Positions 9,132 through 32,774 of a DNA stretch of 38,536 bases are shown here, piece by piece (within the stretch, counting starts at the first letter, position 1; the number at the start of each line of letters is the position of its first letter). Source of the DNA: an uncultured Verrucomicrobiota bacterium (GTDB taxonomy: Bacteria; Verrucomicrobiota; Kiritimatiellia; JAAZAB01). Both the position numbers and the translations under genes were made by a program. A model generated the notes under the pieces. The model searched no databases. It saw only the letters and a list, made by a program, of their open reading frames with translations, and was not told the DNA's origin. The stretch covers positions 1 to 38,536 of the forward strand of contig CAYWJE010000002.1 of assembly GCA_964458525.1 (NCBI GenBank), given 5' to 3'.

Positions 9132-10522
9132 TATCGAGCATAGAAACAGCGCTGGTGGTTGACGACGACGTGCTGATGAGGGAATTCATCATTGAAACAC
9201 TGAAACGCAACGGGCTCTCGGTGTTCGAGGCCGCCAACGGGCTCGACGCCAAGAGCCTGGCCGAGGAGCGCAGCTTCGATATCGCCTTCATTGACATGAA
9301 AATGCCGGGCATGGATGGGATGCAGTTTCTGAAGTTCCTCAAGGAAAGCGGGAATGACGCGCTTCCGGTGATGATCACCGCCTTTGGGACCGTGGAGCAG
9401 GCAGTTGATGCGATGAAAATCGGGGCCTACGACTTTCTCATGAAGCCGTTCTCACCCGACCAGGTTGAGATCATAATCAAGCGGGCCAGGGAGTTCGTAG
9501 GAATCCAGGCACGCAACGCATATCTCCAGGAAGAGCTGGGGTGGCAGCTTCCCCGCGGCAGACAGTTCATCGGGCAGTCGCCGCCCGTCCGCGCCCTTAT
9601 GGAAGCCATTCAGGAAGTGGCCGCATCATCGGCCACAGTGCTTGTTTCGGGCGAAAGCGGAACAGGTAAGGAGCTTGTCGCCCTCGCCATCCACGCGCTC
9701 AGCGGCAGGAAGGATGGCCCTTTTATTCGCATGAACTGCGCCGCGGTACCGAACGAGCTGATGGATAGCGAGATGTTTGGCCACGAAAAAGGCTCCTTCA
9801 CCAGTGCCATATCAAAGCGGATCGGCCGGTTCGAGCTGGCAAACGGCGGCACATTACTTCTCGACGAAATCAGCGAGCTGCACATAGGGCTGCAGGCCAA
9901 GCTGCTGCGGGTTCTACAGGAGCAGGAATTCGAACGCGTTGGCGGCGCGCGCACAATCAGGACCGACTGCCGCGTCATAGCCACCACCAACCGCAACCTG
10001 AAGGAATACGTCGAGACCGGAAAATTCCGGCAGGATCTCTTTTACAGGCTCAACGTGCTGCCGATAAACACACCGCCTCTGAGGGAACGCATCGAAGATA
10101 TCCCGATTCTCATCAACGCCTTTCTCGCAAAATCCGGGGCGCGCAAGACGGCAAACGCTTCTGAACTGAAGTTCTCGGGAGAGGCGATGAGCCTCCTTTG
10201 CGCCTATCCCTGGCCCGGGAACGTGCGTGAACTCGAGAACATGGTCGAACGGCTCACCGTCATGGGCAAGGGCCCCGTTTTCGGGCCTGATGCCCTGCCC
10301 GCCGAAATTCGCGGCGCCACCCCCATCGCGACAGTGCCGGCCCCGCCACAAAAACCGGAGACCCTGAACCTGGCCGAAATCGAGCGTGAAGCCATAATGC
10401 AGGCCCTCGGAATCACCGGTGGAAACAGGCAGAAAACATCGGATATTCTCGGAATAAGCGTGAGAACCCTGCGCAATAAGCTTAATCAGTACAAGCAGGA
10501 CGAGAATACCGGTGGCATGTGA
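9128..10522 (+). CDS. Sigma54-dependent response regulator (FlrC/FleR/FlgR-type by context)
   Basis: REC domain (ALVVDDDVLM, DIAFIDMKMPGMDG, KIGAYDFLMKP). AAA+ domain (GESGTGKE, GSFTSA loop, LLLDEISEL). Fis-type HTH (NRQKTSDILGISVRTLRNKL). ATGA overlap with the kinase; it sits immediately upstream of flgB. Confidence 0.9.
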   Translation: MISSIETALVVDDDVLMREFIIETLKRNGLSVFEAANGLDAKSLAEERSFDIAFIDMKMPGMDGMQFLKFLKESGNDALPVMITAFGTVEQAVDAMKIGAYDFLMKPFSPDQVEIIIKRAREFVGIQARNAYLQEELGWQLPRGRQFIGQSPPVRALMEAIQEVAASSATVLVSGESGTGKELVALAIHALSGRKDGPFIRMNCAAVPNELMDSEMFGHEKGSFTSAISKRIGRFELANGGTLLLDEISELHIGLQAKLLRVLQEQEFERVGGARTIRTDCRVIATTNRNLKEYVETGKFRQDLFYRLNVLPINTPPLRERIEDIPILINAFLAKSGARKTANASELKFSGEAMSLLCAYPWPGNVRELENMVERLTVMGKGPVFGPDALPAEIRGATPIATVPAPPQKPETLNLAEIEREAIMQALGITGGNRQKTSDILGISVRTLRNKLNQYKQDENTGGM

Positions 10523-10896
10523 AGTGCTTTCCTTATCCATTAGCCATGGATACATCAATACAGATGCTGCGCACGATAATGGACGGTTGCACTGCAAGAC
10601 ATCGCGTTCTTGCCAATAACCTCGCGAATGCCGAAACCCCCATGTTCAAGAGGCAGGATCTCAATTTCAAATCGGCCCTTGATCAGGCGTTAAACTCGAA
10701 AAATGAAGGCGGATTCAATGATGTCCAGTTTCAAATCAACACGGATACCAAGTCTCCGGCCTCCGCAAACGGCAATAACGTGTCAACCCAGGCTGAACTC
10801 GGCCTGATTCTCCAGAACAGCCTGCTGTACAATACCGCGACAACAGTTATATCTGACAAATTCACAAGATTGAAAAAAGCCATCAAGGGAGCTTGA
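10519..10896 (+). CDS. flgB: Flagellar basal-body rod protein FlgB
   Basis: Rod N-terminal motif RHRVLANNLANAETPMFKRQDL, typical size, and position before flgC. GTG 10519 overlaps the regulator stop (GTGA); an alternative ATG lies at 10546. Confidence 0.85.
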   Translation: MKCFPYPLAMDTSIQMLRTIMDGCTARHRVLANNLANAETPMFKRQDLNFKSALDQALNSKNEGGFNDVQFQINTDTKSPASANGNNVSTQAELGLILQNSLLYNTATTVISDKFTRLKKAIKGA

Positions 10897-19761: not shown

Positions 19762-19813
19762 AGGGATAGGATGTCCCGGTGGCGGGATGTCAAACAACAG
19801 GGAGGGAACGGAT

Positions 19814-20641
19814 ATGTTACAATCATTGGTTAGTGGAATTTCCGGGTTGCGCACGCACCAGAGTCGTCTGGACGTGATAGCGAACGATGTGGCCAACGTG
19901 AACACCGTTGCTTATAAACAGAACGAAGTGACCTTCAAAGAGGCGCTTGTGGACACGATTCGCACGCCTGCTACCGGCACACCTGGCGTCCAGGTGGGCA
20001 TGGGCACTTCGTTGTCATCGATAACGAAGAACTTCGCGTACGGCATGCTCACCAACACGGGCGTGGCATCCAATGTCGCGCTCCAGGGCGAGGGTTTCTT
20101 CATAGTCGAGAACACGGATCCGACAACATTTGCGACCACTGGCGCCCAGTTCTACACCCGCGCTGGCGACTTTGTGCCGGACGTGAAAGATGCGGACACG
20201 GTGTACCTGATCAATTCGGAAGGCCAGGCGCTTATAGGAACCGATGGCAACCCGATCAACCTGGAACCCGCGGGCGCCACGACCCTCGCCTCGTATTCGA
20301 TCAGCACGGATGGAGATGTCACGGTGGTGGATTCCGAGGGAACATCATCGGTGGTGAACACGATCCGTGTCGTGACGTTCCAGAACAATAATGGCTTGAA
20401 CGCGCAGCGTAGCAGTCTCTTCACGTGGACTCCCACCGCCAGTGCCACCGAACCAGTTGCCGCAGCGGCCAACGATTCGAACGTGGGGCTGATTCAGCAG
20501 GGCTATCTGGAGAGCTCGAACACGGAGCTGGCGTCGGAGTTCACGGAGATGATCATCACCCAGCGCGGGTTCCAGGCGAATTCACGAACGATCACGACTT
20601 CCGACGAGATTCTCCAGGAACTCCTGACGCTGAAGAGGTAG
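19814..20641 (+). CDS. flgE: Flagellar hook protein FlgE (short form, about 275 aa)
   Basis: N-terminal motif MLQSLVSGISGLRTHQSRLDVIANDVANVNTVAYK. C-terminal motif QGYLESSNTELASEFTEMIITQRGFQANSRTITTSDEILQELLTLK. Lies after flgD. GGAGGG RBS before ATG 19814. Confidence 0.8.
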   Translation: MLQSLVSGISGLRTHQSRLDVIANDVANVNTVAYKQNEVTFKEALVDTIRTPATGTPGVQVGMGTSLSSITKNFAYGMLTNTGVASNVALQGEGFFIVENTDPTTFATTGAQFYTRAGDFVPDVKDADTVYLINSEGQALIGTDGNPINLEPAGATTLASYSISTDGDVTVVDSEGTSSVVNTIRVVTFQNNNGLNAQRSSLFTWTPTASATEPVAAAANDSNVGLIQQGYLESSNTELASEFTEMIITQRGFQANSRTITTSDEILQELLTLKR

Positions 20642-20996: not shown

Positions 20997-21200
20997 ATGA
21001 TACCGGTAACGGATTTGCACGGCAAACAGATATACTTGAACGCCGAGCTCATCGAGCAGGTGACTGCGACACCGGATACTCAGATTCTGCTCACCACCGG
21101 GCACCGCGTCTACGTGGCGGAGCGCCCGGAAGAAATCGCAGAGCGGGTGGTCGCATACCGTCGCGACTGTTCGACGCCTCCGCAGGACAAGAATGTCTGA
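20997..21200 (+). CDS. flbD: Flagellar protein FlbD (SwrD-like)
   Basis: 67 aa. MIPVTDLHGKQIYLNAELIEQVTATPDTQILLTTGHRVYVAE matches the FlbD pattern. GAAAGGAG RBS. Immediately precedes motA, as in Firmicutes and spirochaetes. Confidence 0.8.
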   Translation: MIPVTDLHGKQIYLNAELIEQVTATPDTQILLTTGHRVYVAERPEEIAERVVAYRRDCSTPPQDKNV

Positions 21201-21213
21201 TTAGGTTAAAACT

Positions 21214-21978
21214 ATGGATCTCGGGACAGTCATTGGTCTGATATTGGCATTTGCTCTCGTTCTTGGCGCCATCATGGTCGGCGGGGGCGCGGGGTTTTTC
21301 AACATCCCCTCGATCATGATCACGATAGGCGGGTCTTTTGCAGCCACGCTCATGAACTACCCGCTGCCCAAGATAGTGGGGGTCATGGGCGTCGTGCGCA
21401 AGGCGTTCACCGGCAAAGCCGTTGACTATCTGGCTCAGTACAACAGGATCAATGATTTTGCAACGCGCGCACGGCGCGACGGCATTCTGGCGCTCGAAGA
21501 TGATATTGACAATCTCGATGATCTCTTCCTTAAAAAAGGCATGCAGATGGCGGTTGACGGCAACCCGGCCGATGTGATCAGGCAGGTGCTAAACACTGAC
21601 ATCGAGACGATGCTCCAGCGCCACGTCACCGGGCAGAGCATTTTCAAGGCGCTCGGAAACTACGCGCCGGCCTTCGGAATGATAGGAACACTCATAGGAC
21701 TCGTTCAGATGCTCAGGCAGCTCGATGATCCCAGCACGATCGGCGCCGGCATGGCCGTTGCGCTTCTCACCACCCTCTACGGCGCGCTCGTAGCGAACCT
21801 TTTTGCCCTGCCCATGGCCGGCAAGCTGGAACAGCGCACAAACGAAGAACTGGCGCTTCGCAACATGGTTCTCGAGGGAATTCTCTCGATCCAGGAAGGC
21901 AACAGCCCGCGGGTGGTCCAGGAGAAACTGAAGAGCTTCCTCGCGCCCAGCGTGAGAAAGCAAACAGAAGAGACATGA
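21214..21978 (+). CDS. motA: Flagellar stator protein MotA
   Basis: Four TM segments, a cytoplasmic loop with charged residues, and the MotA/TolQ/ExbB C-terminal signature GAGMAVALLTTLYGALVANLFALPMAGKL. Confidence 0.9.
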   Translation: MDLGTVIGLILAFALVLGAIMVGGGAGFFNIPSIMITIGGSFAATLMNYPLPKIVGVMGVVRKAFTGKAVDYLAQYNRINDFATRARRDGILALEDDIDNLDDLFLKKGMQMAVDGNPADVIRQVLNTDIETMLQRHVTGQSIFKALGNYAPAFGMIGTLIGLVQMLRQLDDPSTIGAGMAVALLTTLYGALVANLFALPMAGKLEQRTNEELALRNMVLEGILSIQEGNSPRVVQEKLKSFLAPSVRKQTEET

Positions 21979-21985
21979 GCATGCA

Positions 21986-22828
21986 ATGGCAAAATCGCTA
22001 AAGACCAAGGAGGTGCTGTGTCCCCAGTGGATGATGACCTTCGGTGATTTCATATCGCTCCTGGTCACGTTCTTCGTGATGCTTATAGCCTTCTCAACCT
22101 TCGAGGAGGCAAAGCTAGCCGCGATGATCGGAAGCCTGAAAGGCGCGCTCGGAGTAACCCAGCAGCCGGGCATTGAAATGCAAATACGGGATCCTGCTCA
22201 CTTTGAGCAGATCCGCGGAATTCTGGATGAGCCGAAATGGCTTTCCATTGATGAGCTCTCTGTTGTGGTGCCGGACTTCCAGATGGCAATGAAGAGATTC
22301 GGCGAGCCAATGTTGAGTTCCGAGAGATACGTTACTGTTGCAATGCTTGATGAGGGCATGGCCATTGTCATCTCCGTCAAGCCCCTGTTCGCGCCGGGAA
22401 CCTCATGTCTCCTGCCGGGAAATGAAAGACTCCTTTCCGAAATCGGAGCTTTTGTCGAGGCCCTTGCAAATGAGGCGCGGGTGATAGGGGTGGTTCATGC
22501 GTCCACCCCTGTGTGCTGCAAGACCGCTACCTCTGTCTGGGGGCTCGCCATCGAGAGGGCGATGGCCCTTCAGGAAGGACTGCTTCTGAAATGCGGATTG
22601 CCCAGGGAAAGGTTCGGGGTCGGGGCGAAGGTGGAGAATTCAGTGTCCGACCCGCGCTCAGACCAGGCGGGGCTGCGTCATCTGATGATGAGGGCAGGAC
22701 CACGACTGCAAATTCCAGTAGATGATCCGGTTTTAGCCTCAGAGCATATGGAGATAATCATAATGGGTCGCCAGGCATTCGACGAAATGTCGGCCGAAGA
22801 GGTCATCGTGCGCGATAAGTGGGAATGA
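21986..22828 (+). CDS. motB: Flagellar stator protein MotB (channel Asp present; divergent OmpA-like C-terminus)
   Basis: N-terminal PQWMMTFGDFISLLVTFFVMLIAFS carries the invariant Asp. Weak OmpA-like segment SVWGLAIERAMALQEGLLLKCGLPRERFGVGA. Directly follows motA. Confidence 0.8.
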   Translation: MAKSLKTKEVLCPQWMMTFGDFISLLVTFFVMLIAFSTFEEAKLAAMIGSLKGALGVTQQPGIEMQIRDPAHFEQIRGILDEPKWLSIDELSVVVPDFQMAMKRFGEPMLSSERYVTVAMLDEGMAIVISVKPLFAPGTSCLLPGNERLLSEIGAFVEALANEARVIGVVHASTPVCCKTATSVWGLAIERAMALQEGLLLKCGLPRERFGVGAKVENSVSDPRSDQAGLRHLMMRAGPRLQIPVDDPVLASEHMEIIIMGRQAFDEMSAEEVIVRDKWE

Positions 22829-22850
22829 TTGTGCGGAGAGGGGAAAGGGC

Positions 22851-23549
22851 ATGGCGAAGCTTAAGGAAAAGCCTGAAGAGGGAGCGCCCGCGTACATGGG
22901 ACAATTTGCCTCGCTCATGACAATCATGCTTGCTTTTTTTATAGCGTTGCTTAGTCTTGGTACGGAAAAGGCGGCAACTTTTCGCGACGCGCTTGGAAGC
23001 GTGCAGACAGCGTTCGGGGCGGACGCCGGGATAGGCGTTCTGAGCTTCGTTAAGATGCTTATGCCCGGGAGGCCGGCGGTCGAGATGGATTCGACGGGCG
23101 ACGAGAAGCTTTTTCTTGGTTATACGAAAGGGACTTTTCAACAGCAGAGATTCAGTCTTGATCATATAGCGGACACTGAATTGCAGTCGTTGAAGCGGAT
23201 TGTGCGGGTATCCACTCCCATTAGGTTCGCACCGGCGGATACCGCGATTGACAGCGCCGGCCAGGTGTTTCTGGATCGCTTTGCCGGCATGTTGCGCGGC
23301 ATGCCGGAACGTAATGTGACGGTGTCGTGTTACAGCTCGACCGCCAGCGGGGCCGCCGATCAGGTGATCGCCGCGCGCCGTGCAGCGGCGGTGGTTCGCT
23401 ACCTGATAGAGAATGGAGGCATAGAGCCGGAACGTCTGCTGCCCATGGGGTATTCGGAGGTCCGTTACCTTGGGGATGTCGCCGCGCATGATCCAGAACA
23501 GGCAACGCTGTTTTTCATAAGCTCAAGCCCGATGAAGACGGGGCTGTGA
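22851..23549 (+). CDS. MotB-like OmpA-domain protein lacking the conserved channel Asp (Ser substitution)
   Basis: GAPAYMGQFASLMTIMLAFFIALLSL aligns to the MotB TM segment with Ser at the Asp position. C-terminal OmpA-like motif AARRAAAVVRYLIENGGIEPERLLPMGYSE. GGAGAGGGGAAAGGG RBS region. Confidence 0.7.
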   Translation: MAKLKEKPEEGAPAYMGQFASLMTIMLAFFIALLSLGTEKAATFRDALGSVQTAFGADAGIGVLSFVKMLMPGRPAVEMDSTGDEKLFLGYTKGTFQQQRFSLDHIADTELQSLKRIVRVSTPIRFAPADTAIDSAGQVFLDRFAGMLRGMPERNVTVSCYSSTASGAADQVIAARRAAAVVRYLIENGGIEPERLLPMGYSEVRYLGDVAAHDPEQATLFFISSSPMKTGL

Positions 23550-23582: not shown

Positions 23583-24110
23583 ATGGCCGAAGAAACCGCT
23601 AAAAATGAAGCCGGCGAAGCCGCGGAAGGTGATGCGGCAGTGCCGCCCAAATCCGGGAAAAAATCCGACCTGATGATTGTCGTCATAGTGGGACTGCTGG
23701 TCATCGTTCTCACGCCGCTTGCGACCTTCTTTGTGGTGAAGAAGGCCGCGCCGCCGTCCGAGGAAGACGCGGAGAAGGAGGCGCTGGTTGTCGAGGGTGA
23801 TATTCTGGGTTTCGATCTCAAACCTGTCAATGTCAACATCGCGCAGACCAAGGGCACCCGCTTTCTGCGCCTCGACGTGACGTTGGTCGTGAGCGAGCCG
23901 GGCATGGTGGAGGAACTTAAGAAATACAACTCCCTGCTCACCGACAGGGTGATACTGGCGGCGAGCCGCAGGACGATAGACGAACTGGAGGGGCCAAAAG
24001 GCAGGGAGGCTCTGAAGAGGGACATCATCAGCGAGGTCAACGCGGCCATCAAGGGCAGGATCAATGGCGCGGTGACTGACGTGTATTTCAAGGAATTCCT
24101 TATCCAGTGA
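23583..24110 (+). CDS. fliL: Flagellar basal-body-associated protein FliL
   Basis: Single TM (LMIVVIVGLLVIVLTPLATFFVV) and a FliL-like periplasmic domain (FDLKPVNVNIAQTKGTRFLRLDVTLVV...VTDVYFKEFLIQ). Lies before fliM. Confidence 0.75.
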   Translation: MAEETAKNEAGEAAEGDAAVPPKSGKKSDLMIVVIVGLLVIVLTPLATFFVVKKAAPPSEEDAEKEALVVEGDILGFDLKPVNVNIAQTKGTRFLRLDVTLVVSEPGMVEELKKYNSLLTDRVILAASRRTIDELEGPKGREALKRDIISEVNAAIKGRINGAVTDVYFKEFLIQ

Positions 24111-26986: not shown

Positions 26987-29900
26987 CTAGATCCTGGTAA
27001 TACTGGCGCTTATTCCTGACGAATTTGATACTGTTCCAGTGGTGTCAGTAAACGCCTCAATGGTGAACGGGTTCTTGTAAGACCCGCCTTCCCTGTAGAT
27101 CGAGAACGTTACCGTCGTGTCCGAAGAAGAGGTCCAGTTTCCCGTGAATGACCTGCTCGATGAATCGGTGCCGCTCACGGTTCCGTCGGCATTGATATTG
27201 AATATCTCGTCCGCCGAAGTTTTCCATGAACCGACTGCTGCGTGCGTTGAGGGGTCGTCAGGATCCGGCTTGCACCTGTGCCACGTGCCGAGGCCTATCG
27301 GCAGTACCCCCGACCAGCCCCATGATTTCATGAGCGCCAGTTCACCGTCGAGCGAAATAATATACCAGTTTCCGGTGTAGATGTCGAACACCGAGATATC
27401 ACTGATGCCGTTCCCTGTGTAATCGCCCGCCACTGGCACAGCATCCTTGACGCCCCACGCAAGAGCCCATGTGATGAGGGTTCCATCCAGGGAGATGATA
27501 TACCAGGAGCTTGTGTTCTCATCGAACACCGTGATATCTGTCTTCCCGTCCCCGTTGAAGTCGCCGGATACCGGCGCGGCCCCGGGCCAGCCCCAGGGGA
27601 ATTCCCAGGCCAGCAGCCGCCCGTCAAGCGACATGATGTACCAGTAGCCGGTGTTGCTGTCGAACACGGCGAGGTCGCTCATCCCGTCGCCGTCGAAATC
27701 GCCGGGCACGGGCTCTGCGCCGGGCCAGCCCCAAGCCACGGGACCTACGATGAACGAGCCGCTCAGGGAGCTGATATACCAGTAGCCGCTGCCGCTGTCG
27801 AAGACAGCCAGATCGGCCCTGCCATCCCCGTCATAGTCGCCGGGCACGGGCTCTGCGCCGGGCCAGCCCCAGGGATACTGCCATGCAATGAGCGCGCCTT
27901 CGGCGGAGCAGATGTACCAGTACCCGTTGCTCCCGTCGAACATGGCGAGGTCGCTCTTCCCGTCGCCGAGGTAATCGCCCGGAACGGGAATGGCGCTGGA
28001 CCAGCCCCATTGCAGCTGCAAGATCTCCTCGTCCAGGTTGCTCACGAACCAGTACCCGCTGCTCCCGTCGAACACGGCGAGGTCGCTCTTCCCGTCCCCG
28101 TCATAGTCATTGATAACATAAGGCGCCCTGCTGTAGCCCGTGTCGGGAACGCTGAAAGCACCTGGGCCGACCTGGTTGGTTGATCTGATCCAGTAGTAAT
28201 AAAGCAGGCCTCGAACTGCATTCGTGTCGGTGAATGATGTTGTCCCTGTCTCTCCTATGCTGTCGGCTGCGGCGGATGAGTTCGTCGTGTTCCGCCACAC
28301 CTGATATCCTATTATGTCGGGCACGGAAGCCCATGTTATTTCAACCTTGTTGGTGTATTCCCCGTCAGTCGCCGACACCCAGGAGGGCGGGTCAGCCGGC
28401 GAGCTGCTGAAGCCGATATCGTAGAGCCCGAAGGAGCTCGCGCCTGCCGAATTGGTCGCCTTGACCCAGTAGTAATACACCATGTCCCGTTCCGTAGTGG
28501 TATCGTCGTAACTCGTGCCTGACGCGAACGCAAGCTGTTTGGCCGATGCCACCGTTTCATTTGTATGCCGCCACACCTGATACCCGTGTGCGTTGGATAC
28601 CGAACCCCAGGCCAGGACGACCTTGGAGGTGAAGGTTCCCTTGGAGGCGGACACATAGGAGGGTGGATCGGGAATAGTGTCAGCCACGCTGTAGCCGAAA
28701 ACGGAAGCGCTGAAGTCGCTTGTGTTTAATGAATTGGTTGACTTGACCCAGTAAAAATAGACAACGCGCGACGTCACGGACGAATCATCATAATAAGTCT
28801 CCGTTGTCCTCGTTATTCTCGATGCGGCGGATGATTCGTCATTCGTGCTCCGCCACAATCCATACCCCTCCGCCCCGGGCGAGGAATTCCAGCGCACCTG
28901 CACCTTGTCGCGATAGATGCCCTCAGTGGCGGACAGACCGGATGGCGGGCTCAATGCCCGGTATCCGGAGGCGGCCGCGCTGACCTCGCTCGAGCCGTAG
29001 CTGTCCTTCGCCTTTATCCAGTAGTAATACTTCAAGCCGGCGGATACGGATGAATCGCCATGGTTCGTGGTGATGACGGTGTTAATTTTACCGGCAAGCG
29101 CGGCGTTCGTGGTTGTGCCGCGCCACACTTCGTAGCTGGTGGACCCGCTGTGAGGATTGACGGACTGCCATTCCACCTGCACGTTGTTTATATAGAGTCC
29201 GTCGGTAGCGGAGACGCCGGACGGCGGCGGGACGGCGAGGCAGCCGATCGTTGAAGCGCTGAAGTCACCCGTGCCGTCGGCGTTCTTCGCCCTTATCCAG
29301 TAATAGTACAGTGGCTCACGCTCTGCGGTTGTGTCGCTGTAAGACGTTCCGGAGCTGACCGACCCCAGGAGCGCTGCTGTTGACGTGTCATTTGAAGTGC
29401 TCCTGTGCACCTCGTATCCTGTCGCACGGTGCGCGGAGCTCCAGGTTATTCCGACGATATTGGTGCTGATGCCTTTATCCGCCGATACTTCCGTGGGAGC
29501 GGCGGGAACGGCGGGCAGAGACGGATCGCGGCTTGAATTCTCGTTGTTGTTGCGCGCCTTCGGCCAGGGTGTGTTCGCGAGCGTCCCGCCGGTTCCATAA
29601 TACGCGCAGAGCATTCCCTCCGCGCCGGAGGAGATGCTCACGTAAACAATCCCGTTCGTTCCTATCGCGGGCGAAGAGTAAATTGCGCCAGGCGCCGACC
29701 ATAACCTGTTCGTTGTGCCGTTGGCGTTCAACGCGTAGAACTTGCCGCCCTCTGCTCCGGCATAGATTGTCCCGTCGGATCCGATGGCGGGCGAGGCCCT
29801 CACGGGTCCATCGAGCGCCCATACCCGGCTGGTCGTTCCGCTCTGGTTGAAGGCATAGAGGCAGGAATTCTCGCAGCCGACGTAGATAATGCCGTCGATT

Positions 29901-32548
29901 CCTACGACCGGGCTAGATGCGAGCGAATAGCCGCTCGGAACTGTCCAGACGCGGGACGTGGTGCCGTCCGGATTGAACGCATAGAGCGATCCGGCCTGCG
30001 ATGGGATGAGGATTGTGCCGTTGGCGTTGATCGCGGCGGAGGCGCTGAAAGCGCCGTCGGCGATCGTCCACACGTGCGAAGTGGCGCCGGACGGCGTGAA
30101 GGCGTAAAGAGTGGAACCGCGCGCGGAATAGATCGTGCCGTCCGCTCCTATGGTCGGGGAGCGCTCCGAGCCGCCGTTGGAAAAGATGATATTTGTTTGG
30201 CCATTGGGATTGAATGCATACAGCTTGCCGTCGTAAGATCCGGCATAGAGCACCCCATTGGAGCCGATGGCGGGAGGCGCGAAAATCGCTCCGGTAGCAG
30301 ACCACACTTTGCTCGTGGTTCCATTCGGGTTCAGGGCGAAAAGCCTGTTGCTCCAGGCGCCGGGCACGTATATGGTTCCATTGCTCCCAACCGCCGCCGC
30401 GCTTCCAACGGCGCCGCCCATGCTCCACGCACGATTCGTGGTTCCCCCGGGATCGAATTCGTAAAAGGACGATCCCGATTCGCCCGCGCCCATGTACAAA
30501 ACGCCGTTGGTCCCTATAGCGGGAGCGCCAACCCCGTAGACCACCTTCCACACGTGTGACGTGGTCCCGCCAAACGATCCCGCGCTGCACGCGCTGAACA
30601 GCATGCCCGTGTAGGTGCCAAGCACTGACTTAACCCAGTAATAGTAGATATTCCCGCTCTCCCCGCTCAGATCGTCGAGAATGAGACTACTGGTATATCC
30701 TATCTGGGCTGAGCCGGCGGAGTTGCTGACCGTGCTCCTGAAAACCGCGTATGCACCGGCATCCGTTACTTTGAGCCATGTTATGCGCACCTTGTCGGCA
30801 TAGTCGCCCCAACTTGCATTCATCCCCGATGGTGGAGCAAGATCGCGATAGCCGGACGCTGAGGGCTTACTGAAGCCACTGCTTCCCGAGGCGTTCGTCG
30901 CGCTAATCCAGTAATAGCAAGTCTCCCCCAGTCCGGGGTCGGTATCGGAATACATATTGGTGGCCACAAGCTCCATATTGATCTTCTCAGAGCCTGAGAA
31001 ATCATCAATAGTGTTTCGCCACACATTGTATCCTGAGGCATTGGTGGATTCCGACCAGGATACGAGTATCCTGTTGAAATAGTCGCCATCGCTCGCGACT
31101 GCATTGGCAGGGGCGAGCGGCGCGGCTATGACTGCCTTGTAGCCGTAGTCCGGCGCCCCGAACCGGCTTTTCCATGCCTCGTTGGTGCCTCGGATCCAGT
31201 AATAATAGGTCGTCCCAGCCTCGGCTGTGGCGTCCTCAAAGGAGGTATCCGCGGTATCGTCGATATTTTCCGCAGAAGAAGTGTCGTTGCTGAGGTTTCG
31301 CCACACCTCATAGCCGGTGGTCCCTCCAAGGTCGATCGGGGCATTCCAGGTGATCAGCACCTTGTCCGTATGCGTGCCTTCCGAACAGGCGGTGTTCGTG
31401 GGACCCGAGAACATGAAACCAGTGTTCTCTATGTTCTGCCGGAATTTGGGCCATGGCGATTCAGCCAGCTTGCCGCCCGTTCCGTCGAACGCATATACAT
31501 TGCCGTCGGACGAGCCGACGTATATCGCGCCGTTCGATGATATTGCGGGGGATGAGAGAATGAGGCCCTCCGTATGCCAGACTAAATCAGTGGTTCCGTC
31601 CGGATTGAATGCGAAGAAATAACCCTCTCTCGTGCCGGCATAGATAGTGCCGTCTGCGCCCAGCACGGGCGCCGACTCCACCGGTCCGGTCGTGCTCCAG
31701 AACCTGGAATTGGTGCTGTCCGCGCTGAATTCATAAAGCTTGTTATCAAAGGAGCCCACATAGATCGAGCCGTTCGTGCTGATGACTGGAGACGAATGAA
31801 TCGCGCCAGCCGTTGTCCACACCCGCGAAGTCGAGCCGTTGGGGTCGAATGCGTAAAGATTGCCGTCGCTGGAGCCTATGAAGATCAGTCCGTTCGTGCC
31901 GATCGCCGGTGACGACCGGATCGCGCCGCCCGTGGTCCATACCCGGCTGGTCGCCCCGTTCTGGTTGAAAGCATAAAATTTACCGTCCCCGGATCCGACG
32001 TAGATGGTGCCATCGGGTGAGAGAGCCGGCGATGACTGGATCTCTCCAAATGTGCTCCAGACCCGCGCTGTGGTTCCGTCGGGATTGAAACAGTAGAGCT
32101 TGCGGTCCTCGGATCCCACGTAGATCCTGCCTGCAGAACCCTCGACGGCAGGGGAAGACATGAATATTCTGTCCTCCGCAGTCCACACGTGGCCAGTTGA
32201 GCCGTCGGGATTGAAAGCGTAAAGCTGATTGTCGCTGGATCCGACATAAATCGTGCCGTCCCGCCCTATCGCCGGCGAGGAATAGATCAGCCCGCCTGCG
32301 TTCCACACCGTGTTTGTGGTGCCATCAAGGTTGAGCGAAAGCAGTTCGCCATTGTCATTTCCAACAATAATCGAACCGTCAGCCGCTATGGCTGGAGAGG
32401 AACGCACCTCGGCCGACGTCTCCCATACGAGCGACGTCACTCCGTCATCCCAGCCAAAAGCCCTAACGCTGACCGCCATTAGTGCTATACAGACAAGTTT
32501 CTGCAATGTTCCTGCAAGCGGAACCAGCGCTAAAACGGCTGACGACAT
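26987..32548 (-). CDS. Giant secreted multi-domain protein: 2 x 8-bladed PQQ-like beta-propeller, ~8 FN3-like modules, 6 FG-GAP/VCBS Ca-binding repeats, ~100-aa unknown C-terminal domain
   Basis: Signal peptide (MSSAVLALVPLAGTLQKLVCIALMAVSVRAFG). Two sets of eight ~40-aa blades (SSPAIG.DGTIYVGS.D..LYAFNPDG.T..VW), each ending PWPK.R.N.EN. Repeats of ~93 aa with GY.VWR...YYYW(I/V)(K/R). Six GD(Y/F)DGDG(K/R)(S/A)DLAVFD..(S/T)GYWYI units. The ORF opens at TTG 32569; the first ATG is at 32548. Confidence 0.85.
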   Translation of the reverse strand: MSSAVLALVPLAGTLQKLVCIALMAVSVRAFGWDDGVTSLVWETSAEVRSSPAIAADGSIIVGNDNGELLSLNLDGTTNTVWNAGGLIYSSPAIGRDGTIYVGSSDNQLYAFNPDGSTGHVWTAEDRIFMSSPAVEGSAGRIYVGSEDRKLYCFNPDGTTARVWSTFGEIQSSPALSPDGTIYVGSGDGKFYAFNQNGATSRVWTTGGAIRSSPAIGTNGLIFIGSSDGNLYAFDPNGSTSRVWTTAGAIHSSPVISTNGSIYVGSFDNKLYEFSADSTNSRFWSTTGPVESAPVLGADGTIYAGTREGYFFAFNPDGTTDLVWHTEGLILSSPAISSNGAIYVGSSDGNVYAFDGTGGKLAESPWPKFRQNIENTGFMFSGPTNTACSEGTHTDKVLITWNAPIDLGGTTGYEVWRNLSNDTSSAENIDDTADTSFEDATAEAGTTYYYWIRGTNEAWKSRFGAPDYGYKAVIAAPLAPANAVASDGDYFNRILVSWSESTNASGYNVWRNTIDDFSGSEKINMELVATNMYSDTDPGLGETCYYWISATNASGSSGFSKPSASGYRDLAPPSGMNASWGDYADKVRITWLKVTDAGAYAVFRSTVSNSAGSAQIGYTSSLILDDLSGESGNIYYYWVKSVLGTYTGMLFSACSAGSFGGTTSHVWKVVYGVGAPAIGTNGVLYMGAGESGSSFYEFDPGGTTNRAWSMGGAVGSAAAVGSNGTIYVPGAWSNRLFALNPNGTTSKVWSATGAIFAPPAIGSNGVLYAGSYDGKLYAFNPNGQTNIIFSNGGSERSPTIGADGTIYSARGSTLYAFTPSGATSHVWTIADGAFSASAAINANGTILIPSQAGSLYAFNPDGTTSRVWTVPSGYSLASSPVVGIDGIIYVGCENSCLYAFNQSGTTSRVWALDGPVRASPAIGSDGTIYAGAEGGKFYALNANGTTNRLWSAPGAIYSSPAIGTNGIVYVSISSGAEGMLCAYYGTGGTLANTPWPKARNNNENSSRDPSLPAVPAAPTEVSADKGISTNIVGITWSSAHRATGYEVHRSTSNDTSTAALLGSVSSGTSYSDTTAEREPLYYYWIRAKNADGTGDFSASTIGCLAVPPPSGVSATDGLYINNVQVEWQSVNPHSGSTSYEVWRGTTTNAALAGKINTVITTNHGDSSVSAGLKYYYWIKAKDSYGSSEVSAAASGYRALSPPSGLSATEGIYRDKVQVRWNSSPGAEGYGLWRSTNDESSAASRITRTTETYYDDSSVTSRVVYFYWVKSTNSLNTSDFSASVFGYSVADTIPDPPSYVSASKGTFTSKVVLAWGSVSNAHGYQVWRHTNETVASAKQLAFASGTSYDDTTTERDMVYYYWVKATNSAGASSFGLYDIGFSSSPADPPSWVSATDGEYTNKVEITWASVPDIIGYQVWRNTTNSSAAADSIGETGTTSFTDTNAVRGLLYYYWIRSTNQVGPGAFSVPDTGYSRAPYVINDYDGDGKSDLAVFDGSSGYWFVSNLDEEILQLQWGWSSAIPVPGDYLGDGKSDLAMFDGSNGYWYICSAEGALIAWQYPWGWPGAEPVPGDYDGDGRADLAVFDSGSGYWYISSLSGSFIVGPVAWGWPGAEPVPGDFDGDGMSDLAVFDSNTGYWYIMSLDGRLLAWEFPWGWPGAAPVSGDFNGDGKTDITVFDENTSSWYIISLDGTLITWALAWGVKDAVPVAGDYTGNGISDISVFDIYTGNWYIISLDGELALMKSWGWSGVLPIGLGTWHRCKPDPDDPSTHAAVGSWKTSADEIFNINADGTVSGTDSSSRSFTGNWTSSSDTTVTFSIYREGGSYKNPFTIEAFTDTTGTVSNSSGISASITRI

Positions 32549-32774
32549 CCTTTGATACGCTTTACTCAAATTTATGCCCGCCTGCTTGTTTTAGCCGTAA
32601 TCTGGAACCTGAATCCTGCACGAGTCCGTGCAATATCCAGATCATAGAATAATACACCATTTTTCCGTTTCTGTCGCCTTTTTTTTCGTCCGAATGGGTG
32701 TGAAGCAAATTTGTTGATTCCTTTATAAAGCTCTAATAAAACCTGCGCGGACGACGTGGAAGTCGGCCCTCCAG

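What the first reader, a model, noticed from the sequence alone, without database searches (positions are those of the whole stretch)
21986..23549. Tandem MotB paralogues with complementary defects: one keeps the channel Asp, the other replaces it with Ser
Two MotB-type genes follow motA. MotB-1 (21986-22828) has WMMTFGDFISLLVTFFVML with the invariant proton-accepting Asp (E. coli MotB Asp32 equivalent). Its peptidoglycan-binding region is poorly conserved (SVWGLAIERAMALQEGLL). MotB-2 (22851-23549) aligns position-for-position over the TM segment (AYMGQFASLMTIMLAFFIALL versus E. coli AYADFMTAMMAFFLVMW). It has Ser in place of the Asp and no other acidic residue in the helix. It does retain the clearer OmpA-type motif (AARRAAAVVRYLIENGGIEPERLLPMGYSE). 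That Asp is regarded as indispensable in MotB, PomB, TolR and ExbD proteins. The stator contains a MotB dimer inside a MotA pentamer, so a MotB-1/MotB-2 heterodimer would be possible. In such a heterodimer one chain would conduct ions and the other would anchor to the wall. Alternatively MotB-2 is a non-conducting stator-like anchor or regulator. Either case would be an uncharacterised stator arrangement.
Basis: partly seen in the sequence, partly recalled or inferred. Interest (0 to 1): 0.7.

Follow-up and report, generated by a model that had tools for sequence, protein, structure and literature searches.

The report
Aspartate-less MotB paralogue in flagellar stator operon
Next to the normal flagellar stator genes, this bacterium and dozens of related PVC-group species keep a second MotB-like gene that has lost the ion-binding aspartate thought essential in this protein family, which points to an undescribed kind of stator, possibly with two different axle proteins.

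Summary
flbD-motA is followed by two MotB paralogues, then fliL-fliM-fliN. B1 (21986-22828) keeps the channel Asp (D21). B2 (22851-23549) has Ser21 at exactly that position, shown by a gapless alignment to Vibrio PomB and by profile-profile alignment.

This is a conserved family, not an accident. In 41 species-level genomes (Lentisphaerota, Kiritimatiellae, "Verrucomicrobia", anammox Planctomycetota), B2 carries S, A, G or I and never D or E. Its transmembrane helix is the best-conserved part of the protein. B1 lies directly upstream in 39 of the 41.

The "complementary defects" idea is only partly right. B1 keeps a PomB/MotS-type periplasmic fold and an invariant Arg. In anammox genomes B1 has the full GHTD…R motif, while B2 has lost both residues. 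The window's B2 also lacks the motif Asp.

In marine Lentisphaeraceae-type contigs motA is followed by B2 alone. An Asp-bearing B1 gene sits in a separate signalling operon in MAGs of the same family.

My best reading is that B2 enters the MotA pentamer as a non-ion-binding axle subunit, most likely paired with B1 (confidence about 0.4). The main rival is an inert MotA5(B2)2 unit. I found no description in the literature. I rate it a new variant of a known kind.

The parts
20997..21200 (+). flbD
   Evidence: Pfam FlbD 5.9e-23. It precedes motA in most related loci.
21214..21978 (+). motA (PomA/MotP-like stator A subunit)
   Evidence: Pfam MotA_ExbB 9e-32. The best NCBIfam match is PomA, 1e-81, below the equivalog cut-off. 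TM3/TM4 read as canonical (PAFGMIGT…LLTTLYG) with no acidic residue.
21986..22828 (+). MotB-1 (B1): canonical Asp-bearing stator B subunit with a divergent periplasmic motif
   Evidence: MotB_plug 5e-13. Asp21 aligns to PomB Asp24 and is invariant in 27 homologues. The AF2 C-terminal domain has pLDDT 88-97 and matches MotS and PomB periplasmic domains.
22046..22048 (+). B1 Asp21 codon (GAT), the ion-binding residue
22851..23549 (+). MotB-2 (B2): Asp-less MotB paralogue
   Evidence: MotB_plug 1.6e-9 and OmpA 1.1e-10. The family alignment is A1. There are 63 representative clusters at E<=1e-30.
22881..22958 (+). B2 transmembrane helix (residues 11-36, GAPAYMGQFASLMTIMLAFFIALLSL), the most conserved part of the protein
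   Evidence: Mean pairwise identity is 0.81 here, against 0.35 in the OmpA-like domain. Gapless match to the PomB TM helix.
22911..22913 (+). B2 Ser21 codon (TCG) at the position of the universally conserved Asp
   Evidence: The family shows S22, A15, G2 and I2 in 41 species.
22959..23048 (+). B2 plug-like segment (residues 37-66), with invariant Gly residues G49, G60 and G62
   Evidence: Aligned to the PomB plug region. Invariant columns. Identity 0.48.
23196..23522 (+). B2 OmpA-like domain (residues 116-224); Arg177 is kept but the Asp of GHTD is missing
   Evidence: AF2 pLDDT about 80-90. Foldseek top hit is the OprF C-terminal domain 5u1h at 8e-9. Alignment to OprF.
23583..24110 (+). fliL
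   Evidence: Pfam FliL 1.7e-19. It follows B2 in most related loci.

Best explanation
B2 is a conserved paralogue of the stator B subunit (MotB/PomB). It has lost the ion-binding aspartate but keeps the MotB transmembrane helix, a plug-like segment and an OmpA-like fold. It belongs to a three-gene stator module, motA-B1-B2, that arose by an ancient tandem duplication of motB and has been inherited vertically across PVC lineages.

The most likely mechanism is inferred, not shown. The B2 helix occupies one of the two axle positions inside the MotA pentamer, next to B1, giving a MotA5:B1:B2 unit with a single carboxylate. Only B1 would bind and release the coupling ion. The permanently neutral Ser/Ala/Gly of B2 would let the hydrophobic MotA interior slide past it. 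The unit would then work with one ion-carrying chain, which is the 72-degree-step alternative discussed for MotAB. Both plug segments would still lock the ring before assembly.

Shown here: homology, the position of the substitution, family-wide conservation, synteny, co-diversification and the predicted folds. Inferred: that B2 sits in MotA, that it pairs with B1, and the consequence for stepping.
For: (1) The Ser is at exactly the Asp position.
(2) All 41 species-level loci have S, A, G or I there and none has D or E. The top ~80 representative clusters likewise carry S, A, T, G, I, V or M, apart from three B2-like clusters (P0124, P0131, P0138) that keep Asp. Canonical MotB/PomB hits further down the same list all have D.
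(3) The TM helix is the most conserved part of B2 (0.81, against 0.35 for the OmpA-like domain). It keeps the MotB signature LMTxLLAFF, the polar S/T at +3 and the aromatic residue at -2. These correspond to the only polar MotB residues facing MotA in the CjMotAB structure.
(4) The plug-like segment is conserved, with invariant Gly residues. This is hard to explain if B2 never takes part in a conducting unit.
(5) B1 is directly upstream in 39 of 41 loci. Stop and start codons overlap in 17 of 34 pairs.
(6) The B1 and B2 subtrees are congruent.
(7) Lineages exist in which both tandem copies still have Asp (L051, L052), so the duplication preceded the loss.
(8) The trio persists without fliL after it in the Lentisphaera araneosa-like loci, which suggests a three-part module.
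(9) There is precedent: AglR5-AglQ-AglS is predicted to have a heterodimeric axle, and Aquifex has a motA-motB1-motB2 operon.
(10) The structural paper on MotAB explicitly considers a 72-degree model in which only one chain transports ions.
Against: In four marine Lentisphaerales/Lentisphaeraceae-type contigs, motA is followed by B2 alone (L018, L025, L049, L050). B1-like genes of that family lie in another operon. Co-translation of the pair is therefore not obligatory, and MotA+B2 may be a unit of its own.

From my own knowledge, not checked here: E. coli MotB Asp32 substitutions are dominant-negative. That argues that mixed dimers do not work in that system.

Linker lengths of B1 and B2 do not covary.
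Confidence: 0.4

Rival explanations
1. B2 forms homodimers inside MotA pentamers. This gives non-conducting, torque-less MotA5(B2)2 units that compete or exchange with active MotA5(B1)2 units at the rotor. They could act as a placeholder that stabilises MotA, or as a brake or speed governor.
For: motA-B2-fliL operons without B1 show that MotA+B2 is expressed as a unit. In Lentisphaeraceae MAGs the Asp-bearing B1 lies in a signalling operon (CheX, histidine kinases, HDOD, sigma-54 activator), which suggests it is supplied separately. MotB proteins are normally homodimers.
Against: In 39 of 41 species B2 is co-transcribed, often translationally coupled, with B1. A constitutive dominant-negative subunit would be costly. 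A conserved plug-like segment is not needed on a channel that cannot conduct. The orphan B1 and the B2-only operon were not shown to be in the same genome.
Confidence: 0.28
2. B2 does not enter the MotA pentamer. It is a membrane-anchored periplasmic scaffold derived from MotB that helps position or retain stators near the basal body. In that role it would resemble MotY/T-ring or spoke proteins, or act as a FliL partner.
For: It has an OmpA-like fold with a conserved Arg in most non-anammox members. The gene lies between B1 and fliL.
Against: The periplasmic domain is the less conserved part (0.35), and in anammox genomes it has lost both peptidoglycan-binding residues. The strongest constraint is on a TM helix that keeps the MotA-facing MotB signature. 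Known scaffolds such as MotY lack such a helix (my own knowledge).
Confidence: 0.12
3. B2 is itself a working ion-coupling subunit that uses hydroxyl or backbone ligands in place of a carboxylate. The B2-only operons would then encode complete stators.
For: B2-only operons lie next to chemotaxis genes and have an intact MotA. The MotA is PomA-like with the Thr pair.
Against: The position varies among S, A, G, T, I, V and M, including residues that cannot ligate an ion. The Asp is the one absolutely required residue in every tested stator. Asp-bearing B1 genes exist elsewhere in the same family.
Confidence: 0.03
4. B2 is a decaying duplicate with no function.
For: It has lost the key Asp and, in some lineages, the peptidoglycan-binding residues.
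Against: The reading frame is intact in every locus examined. The TM helix is 81 % identical across proteins that share only about 30-35 % identity overall. The family spans several phylum-level lineages.
Confidence: 0.02

Closest known systems
MotB/PomB/MotS flagellar stator B subunits (MotA5B2 units; e.g. V. alginolyticus PomB, PDB 8brd/8bri)
   Same: Both have a single N-terminal TM helix with the same signature, a plug-like segment and an OmpA-like periplasmic domain, and the gene lies next to motA in a flagellar operon. B1 is an ordinary, if divergent, member.
   Different: B2 lacks the universally conserved Asp (Ser21 in the window; S, A, G or I across the 41 species). It has Tyr in place of Trp at -6 and Gln/Leu in place of Thr at -3. 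Both proteins score far below every NCBIfam MotB equivalog cut-off.
Aquifex aeolicus motA-motB1-motB2 operon (PMC4525482)
   Same: One motA is followed by two tandem motB genes whose periplasmic regions differ.
   Different: The Aquifex TM regions are 97 % identical, and chimeric forms of each (Aquifex TM region fused to the E. coli MotB periplasmic region) worked with Aquifex MotA in E. coli. They are alternative complete B subunits. Here the second copy has lost the ion-binding residue.
Myxococcus AglR-AglQ-AglS gliding motor (predicted AglR5QS, PMC11761067)
   Same: It is a 5:2-type motor in which two different TolR/MotB-like proteins are proposed to form a heterodimeric axle inside one pentamer.
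   Different: It belongs to the Tol/Exb branch, is not flagellar and has no OmpA-like domains. I did not check the state of the Asp in AglQ or AglS.
GldLM/PorLM type IX secretion motors (5:2)
   Same: It is a 5:2 motor whose axle protein does not carry the protonatable carboxylate (my own knowledge, not tested here).
   Different: In GldLM the acidic residue sits on the pentamer. Here MotA has no acidic residue in TM3/TM4, so that solution does not apply.
MotY and generic OmpA-family peptidoglycan anchors
   Same: They share the OmpA-like fold.
   Different: B2 has a MotB-type TM helix and plug, was never found away from motA or B1, and its peptidoglycan-binding dyad is incomplete.

Membership tests
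MotB/PomB stator B subunit | N-terminal single TM helix plus plug matching PF13677 (MotB_plug) | tested here: met
   B1 scores 48.9 bits and B2 37.6 bits against a cut-off of 24. Both align without gaps to PomB.
MotB/PomB stator B subunit | Invariant Asp near the cytoplasmic end of the TM helix (E. coli D32, PomB D24) | tested here: not met
   Met for B1 (D21). Not met for B2, which has Ser21 in the window and S, A, G or I in 41 of 41 species.
MotB/PomB stator B subunit | OmpA-like periplasmic domain | tested here: met
   B2 passes Pfam OmpA at 42 bits (cut-off 27.2) and matches OprF and MotB folds by Foldseek. B1 fails Pfam (12.8 bits), but its AF2 model matches MotS and PomBc5 with TM-score 0.78-0.80.
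MotB/PomB stator B subunit | Peptidoglycan-binding Asp/Arg dyad (GHTD … RA) | tested here: not met
   In the window, B1 has GVVH…ERA and B2 has CYS-…RRA. The Arg is kept and the Asp is lost in both. Anammox B1 has the full motif, while anammox B2 has lost both residues.
MotB/PomB stator B subunit | Encoded beside motA in a flagellar gene cluster | tested here: met
   The order is flbD-motA-B1-B2-fliL-fliM-fliN in the window and in related loci.
MotB/PomB stator B subunit | Forms the dimeric axle in a MotA pentamer and couples ion flow to rotation | not testable with these tools
   No multimer prediction or experiment was available.
NCBIfam MotB/MotS/MotD equivalogs | Whole-protein score above the curated cut-off | tested here: not met
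   The best match is NF006508 at 68 bits (B1) and 56 bits (B2), against a cut-off of 259.
Aquifex-type alternative MotB1/MotB2 pair | Two tandem motB genes after one motA, both with an intact and near-identical TM helix | tested here: not met
   The tandem arrangement is met. The TM helices differ and B2 lacks Asp.
Heterodimeric-axle 5:2 motor (AglR5QS type) | Two different B-type subunits in one pentamer | not testable with these tools
   This is only inferred from synteny, translational coupling and co-diversification.
Generic OmpA-family envelope protein | Occurs independently of stator genes | tested here: not met
   Every B2 homologue whose context was read lies directly after B1 or motA.

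The most novel reading that the evidence does not exclude
PVC bacteria drive their flagella with a naturally asymmetric stator, MotA5:B1:B2, that has only one ion-binding aspartate. It would use half the ions per MotA revolution and step by 72 degrees per ion. In Lentisphaeraceae the conducting subunit B1 would have been moved under separate signalling control, so the motor could be switched on by supplying B1.
Probability: 0.3. Interest if true: 0.85.

Novelty: new variant of a known kind. Interest (0 to 1): 0.68.

Why it matters
The Asp of MotB is treated as universally conserved and indispensable in the whole 5:2 motor superfamily. Current stepping models assume that two identical Asp residues alternate. 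Here is a natural, widely conserved stator-operon protein that keeps the MotA-facing helix but not the Asp.

If it pairs with B1, it would give a direct experimental handle on the 36-degree versus 72-degree stepping question and on how many ion sites a stator unit needs. If it forms inert units, it would be a new built-in way of regulating motor output.

Either way, automatic annotation as 'MotB' or 'OmpA family protein' hides the difference. The family (about 60-80 clusters at 50 % identity) deserves its own name.

Tried and rejected
- I looked for covariation of the TM-to-OmpA linker length between paired B1 and B2. There was none (r = 0.09).
- I tried to link the B2-only operons to the orphan B1 genes at genome or sample level, through cluster member names and sample accessions. 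No names were returned and no samples were shared. The link therefore rests on family-level MAG labels and on matching positions in the two subtrees.
- Six literature searches, plus a term search within the 2025 MotAB evolution paper, found no description of an Asp-less MotB.
- I considered an acidic residue on MotA, as in GldL, and rejected it after reading TM3/TM4.
- I considered the conserved Asp six residues upstream in anammox B2 as a substitute site. I rejected it as a general answer because it is absent from the other lineages.
- I rejected a Zorya-like or other non-flagellar 5:2 system because of the gene context.
- The neighbour-joining tree has no bootstrap support and should be read only for its broad pattern.

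Full report
**What is in the window**

The window carries a flagellar gene cluster on the + strand. Its order is two-component and sigma-54 regulators, FliF, FliG, FliI, FliK, FlgD, a short FlgE, FlbD, MotA, two MotB-like genes, FliL, FliM and FliN. A LamB porin further downstream suggests an outer membrane, so the organism is probably diderm.

B1 is at 21986-22828 (280 aa) and B2 at 22851-23549 (232 aa). They are separated by 22 bases that include a purine-rich ribosome-binding stretch.

**Is the observation right?**

Both proteins pass Pfam MotB_plug. Only B2 passes Pfam OmpA.

phmmer against PDB sequences aligns residues 8-57 of B2 without a gap to V. alginolyticus PomB. This puts Ser21 on PomB Asp24. 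B1 aligns the same way, with Asp21 on Asp24. A profile-profile comparison of the two families is homologous over 215 columns (98.6 %) and again matches the Ser column to the Asp column.

The Ser codon is TCG, at least two changes away from an Asp codon. No acidic residue lies in the B2 helix.

Its conclusion is still correct.

**B2 is a conserved family**

The first homology search found 15 relatives. They share an almost invariant N-terminus, GAPAYMGQFASLMTILLAFFI.

An exhaustive profile search of 1.84 billion representatives gave 63 clusters at E<=1e-30. Roughly the top 80 hits carry S, A, T, G, I, V or M at the Asp position, with three exceptions that keep Asp (P0124, P0131, P0138). Ordinary MotB/PomB proteins begin at about E 1e-22 in the same list, and all of them have Asp.

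A scan of one genome per species returned 41 loci. By record title they come from Victivallales and Lentisphaerae, Kiritimatiellae, 'Verrucomicrobia', and Scalindua and other anammox Planctomycetota. Two odd bin labels also appear. At the Asp position these 41 loci have Ser in 22, Ala in 15, Gly in 2 and Ile in 2. None has Asp or Glu.

Pairwise identity within the family is 0.81 in the TM helix, 0.48 in the plug-like segment, 0.35 in the OmpA-like domain and about 0.25 elsewhere. Selection therefore acts most strongly on the membrane helix, while the one residue thought essential is free to vary among small or neutral side chains.

**Gene context**

In 39 of the 41 loci an Asp-bearing B1 (CPxWMMTFGDxxSLLVTFFV, PomB-like) lies directly between motA and B2, and fliL usually follows. 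The B1 stop and B2 start codons overlap in 17 of 34 pairs measured.

In a neighbour-joining tree, B2 forms its own clade and B1 groups with canonical MotB/PomB. The two subtrees show the same lineage groups, as expected for an old duplication inherited together. This tree has no support values.

Some lineages with the same tandem layout still have Asp in both copies (L051, L052/L053). This shows that the duplication came first and the loss later. It resembles the Aquifex motA-motB1-motB2 operon, whose two MotBs have 97 % identical TM regions and whose chimeric forms both function.

**Are the defects complementary?**

Only superficially.

The B1 periplasmic domain is predicted with pLDDT 88-97. 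Its best structural matches are stator domains: B. subtilis MotS and Vibrio PomBc5, with TM-score 0.78-0.80. Its motif Arg is nearly invariant in the B1 homologue alignment and present in all 34 paired loci checked. What it has lost in the window's lineage is the Asp of GHTD (GVVH).

The B2 domain is also an OmpA-like fold. In the window it likewise lacks that Asp.

In anammox genomes B1 has the complete GHTDD…LSxARA motif, while B2 has lost both the Asp and the Arg.

B1 is therefore the canonical subunit, and B2 is the derived one in both respects. The idea that 'one conducts, the other anchors' does not hold across the family.

**An unexpected variant**

In four contigs from marine Lentisphaerales/Lentisphaeraceae-type organisms the operon reads flgD-flgE-motA-B2-fliL-fliM-fliN. 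There is no B1 and no flbD. One of these contigs has chemotaxis genes next door.

A search with the nearest B1 found a group of 259-aa B1-like proteins with the Asp intact, several of them from Lentisphaeraceae MAGs. They are encoded in a conserved signalling operon: CheX-CheX-binding protein-kinase-receiver-hybrid kinase-B1-HDOD-PAS kinase-sigma-54 activator. No motA lies within 10 kb.

In the tree these orphan B1s sit where the B2-only proteins sit in the B2 subtree. I could not show that both loci are in one genome, so the link is an inference. If it is true, MotA and B2 are made with the flagellum, and the ion-binding subunit is supplied under separate control.

**How it most likely works**

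The structural paper on MotAB states three relevant things:
- The MotB helix and the MotA interior are hydrophobic except for MotB Tyr, Asp and Ser/Thr.
- MotA can rotate only around a charge-neutralised Asp.
- Steps could be 36 degrees, with both chains alternating, or 72 degrees, with one chain transporting.

B2 keeps the aromatic residue and the Ser/Thr and replaces the Asp with a permanently neutral residue. Its plug-like segment is conserved.

The reading that fits most of the evidence is that B2 occupies one axle position in the MotA pentamer next to B1, giving a single-carboxylate stator. I put this at about 0.4. A heterodimeric axle has been predicted for the Myxococcus AglR5QS motor.

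The main rival, at about 0.28, is that B2 homodimers make inert MotA5(B2)2 units that act as placeholders or brakes and exchange with B1 units. The B2-only operons and the separately encoded B1 favour this. The near-universal co-transcription with B1 and the conserved plug count against it.

A scaffold role outside MotA (0.12), ion coupling without a carboxylate (0.03) and a dead gene (0.02) are less likely, for the reasons given under the rival explanations.

**Novelty**

I found no paper describing an Asp-less MotB paralogue in six full-text searches. A search of the 2025 phylogenetic survey of MotAB for 'aspartate', 'Asp32' and 'D32' found no occurrence. No curated NCBIfam model reaches its cut-off.

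I rate it a new variant of a known kind. It is of clear interest to people working on flagellar and other 5:2 motors, and it can be tested directly with multimer modelling, co-purification and chimeric complementation.

Noticed in passing
L054:5001-5780, L056:5001-5780, L057:10001-10780, L058:9227-10006: In Lentisphaeraceae-type contigs an Asp-bearing B1-like motB gene stands alone, with no motA within 10 kb. It sits inside a conserved operon of CheX-CheX-periplasmic binding protein-histidine kinase-receiver-hybrid kinase-B1-HDOD, followed by a PAS kinase and a sigma-54 activator.
   Followed up: partly
L018:4219-5699, L025:4197-5696, L049:9221-10702, L050:4164-5648: In these flagellar operons motA is followed directly by the Asp-less B2 and then fliL. 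B1 and flbD are both absent.
   Followed up: partly
L027-L046 (anammox loci), B2 N-termini: Anammox B2 proteins have a conserved Asp six residues before the canonical position (xDMxAFAS/ALMTILLAFF), replacing the Trp/Tyr found in all other MotB and B2 proteins. Many also carry a 20-25-residue N-terminal extension.
   Followed up: no
L038:3495-5729, L044:3376-5702: In Lentisphaera araneosa-like genomes the motA-B1-B2 trio has no fliL after it. Instead, in L038, a roughly 440-aa ORF that reads as a hydrophobic membrane protein follows. B2 is very diverged there, with Ile at the Asp position (FTILYLLLMVFF). L044 has a second MotA-like ORF at 9904-10587.
   Followed up: no
window 19787-20641: The hook gene after flgD encodes only 284 aa (rod N- and C-terminal domains plus D1). 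Related loci have similarly short products of 270-282 aa, so the hook protein apparently lacks the outer domains.
   Followed up: no
window 26987-32569 (- strand): This is a 1860-aa protein with three beta-propeller (PQQ/BamB-like) regions, many fibronectin-III/Ig-like repeats and C-terminal FG-GAP repeats. It lies immediately downstream of the flagellar cluster on the opposite strand.
   Followed up: no
window 22646-22750 (B1 residues ~221-255): B1 of the window and its two closest relatives carries an insertion of about 25 residues (DPRSDQAGLRHLMMRAGPRLQIPVDDPV) after the OmpA-like core. Other B1 proteins lack it. The C-terminal motif E-I-x-I…V-x-D-x-W is conserved family-wide.
   Followed up: no
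L052:1817-2149: A nucleotidyltransferase-fold gene (NTP_transf_2/Polbeta) is inserted between motA and B1 in a lineage whose B2 still has Asp. Two flbD copies precede motA there.
   Followed up: no
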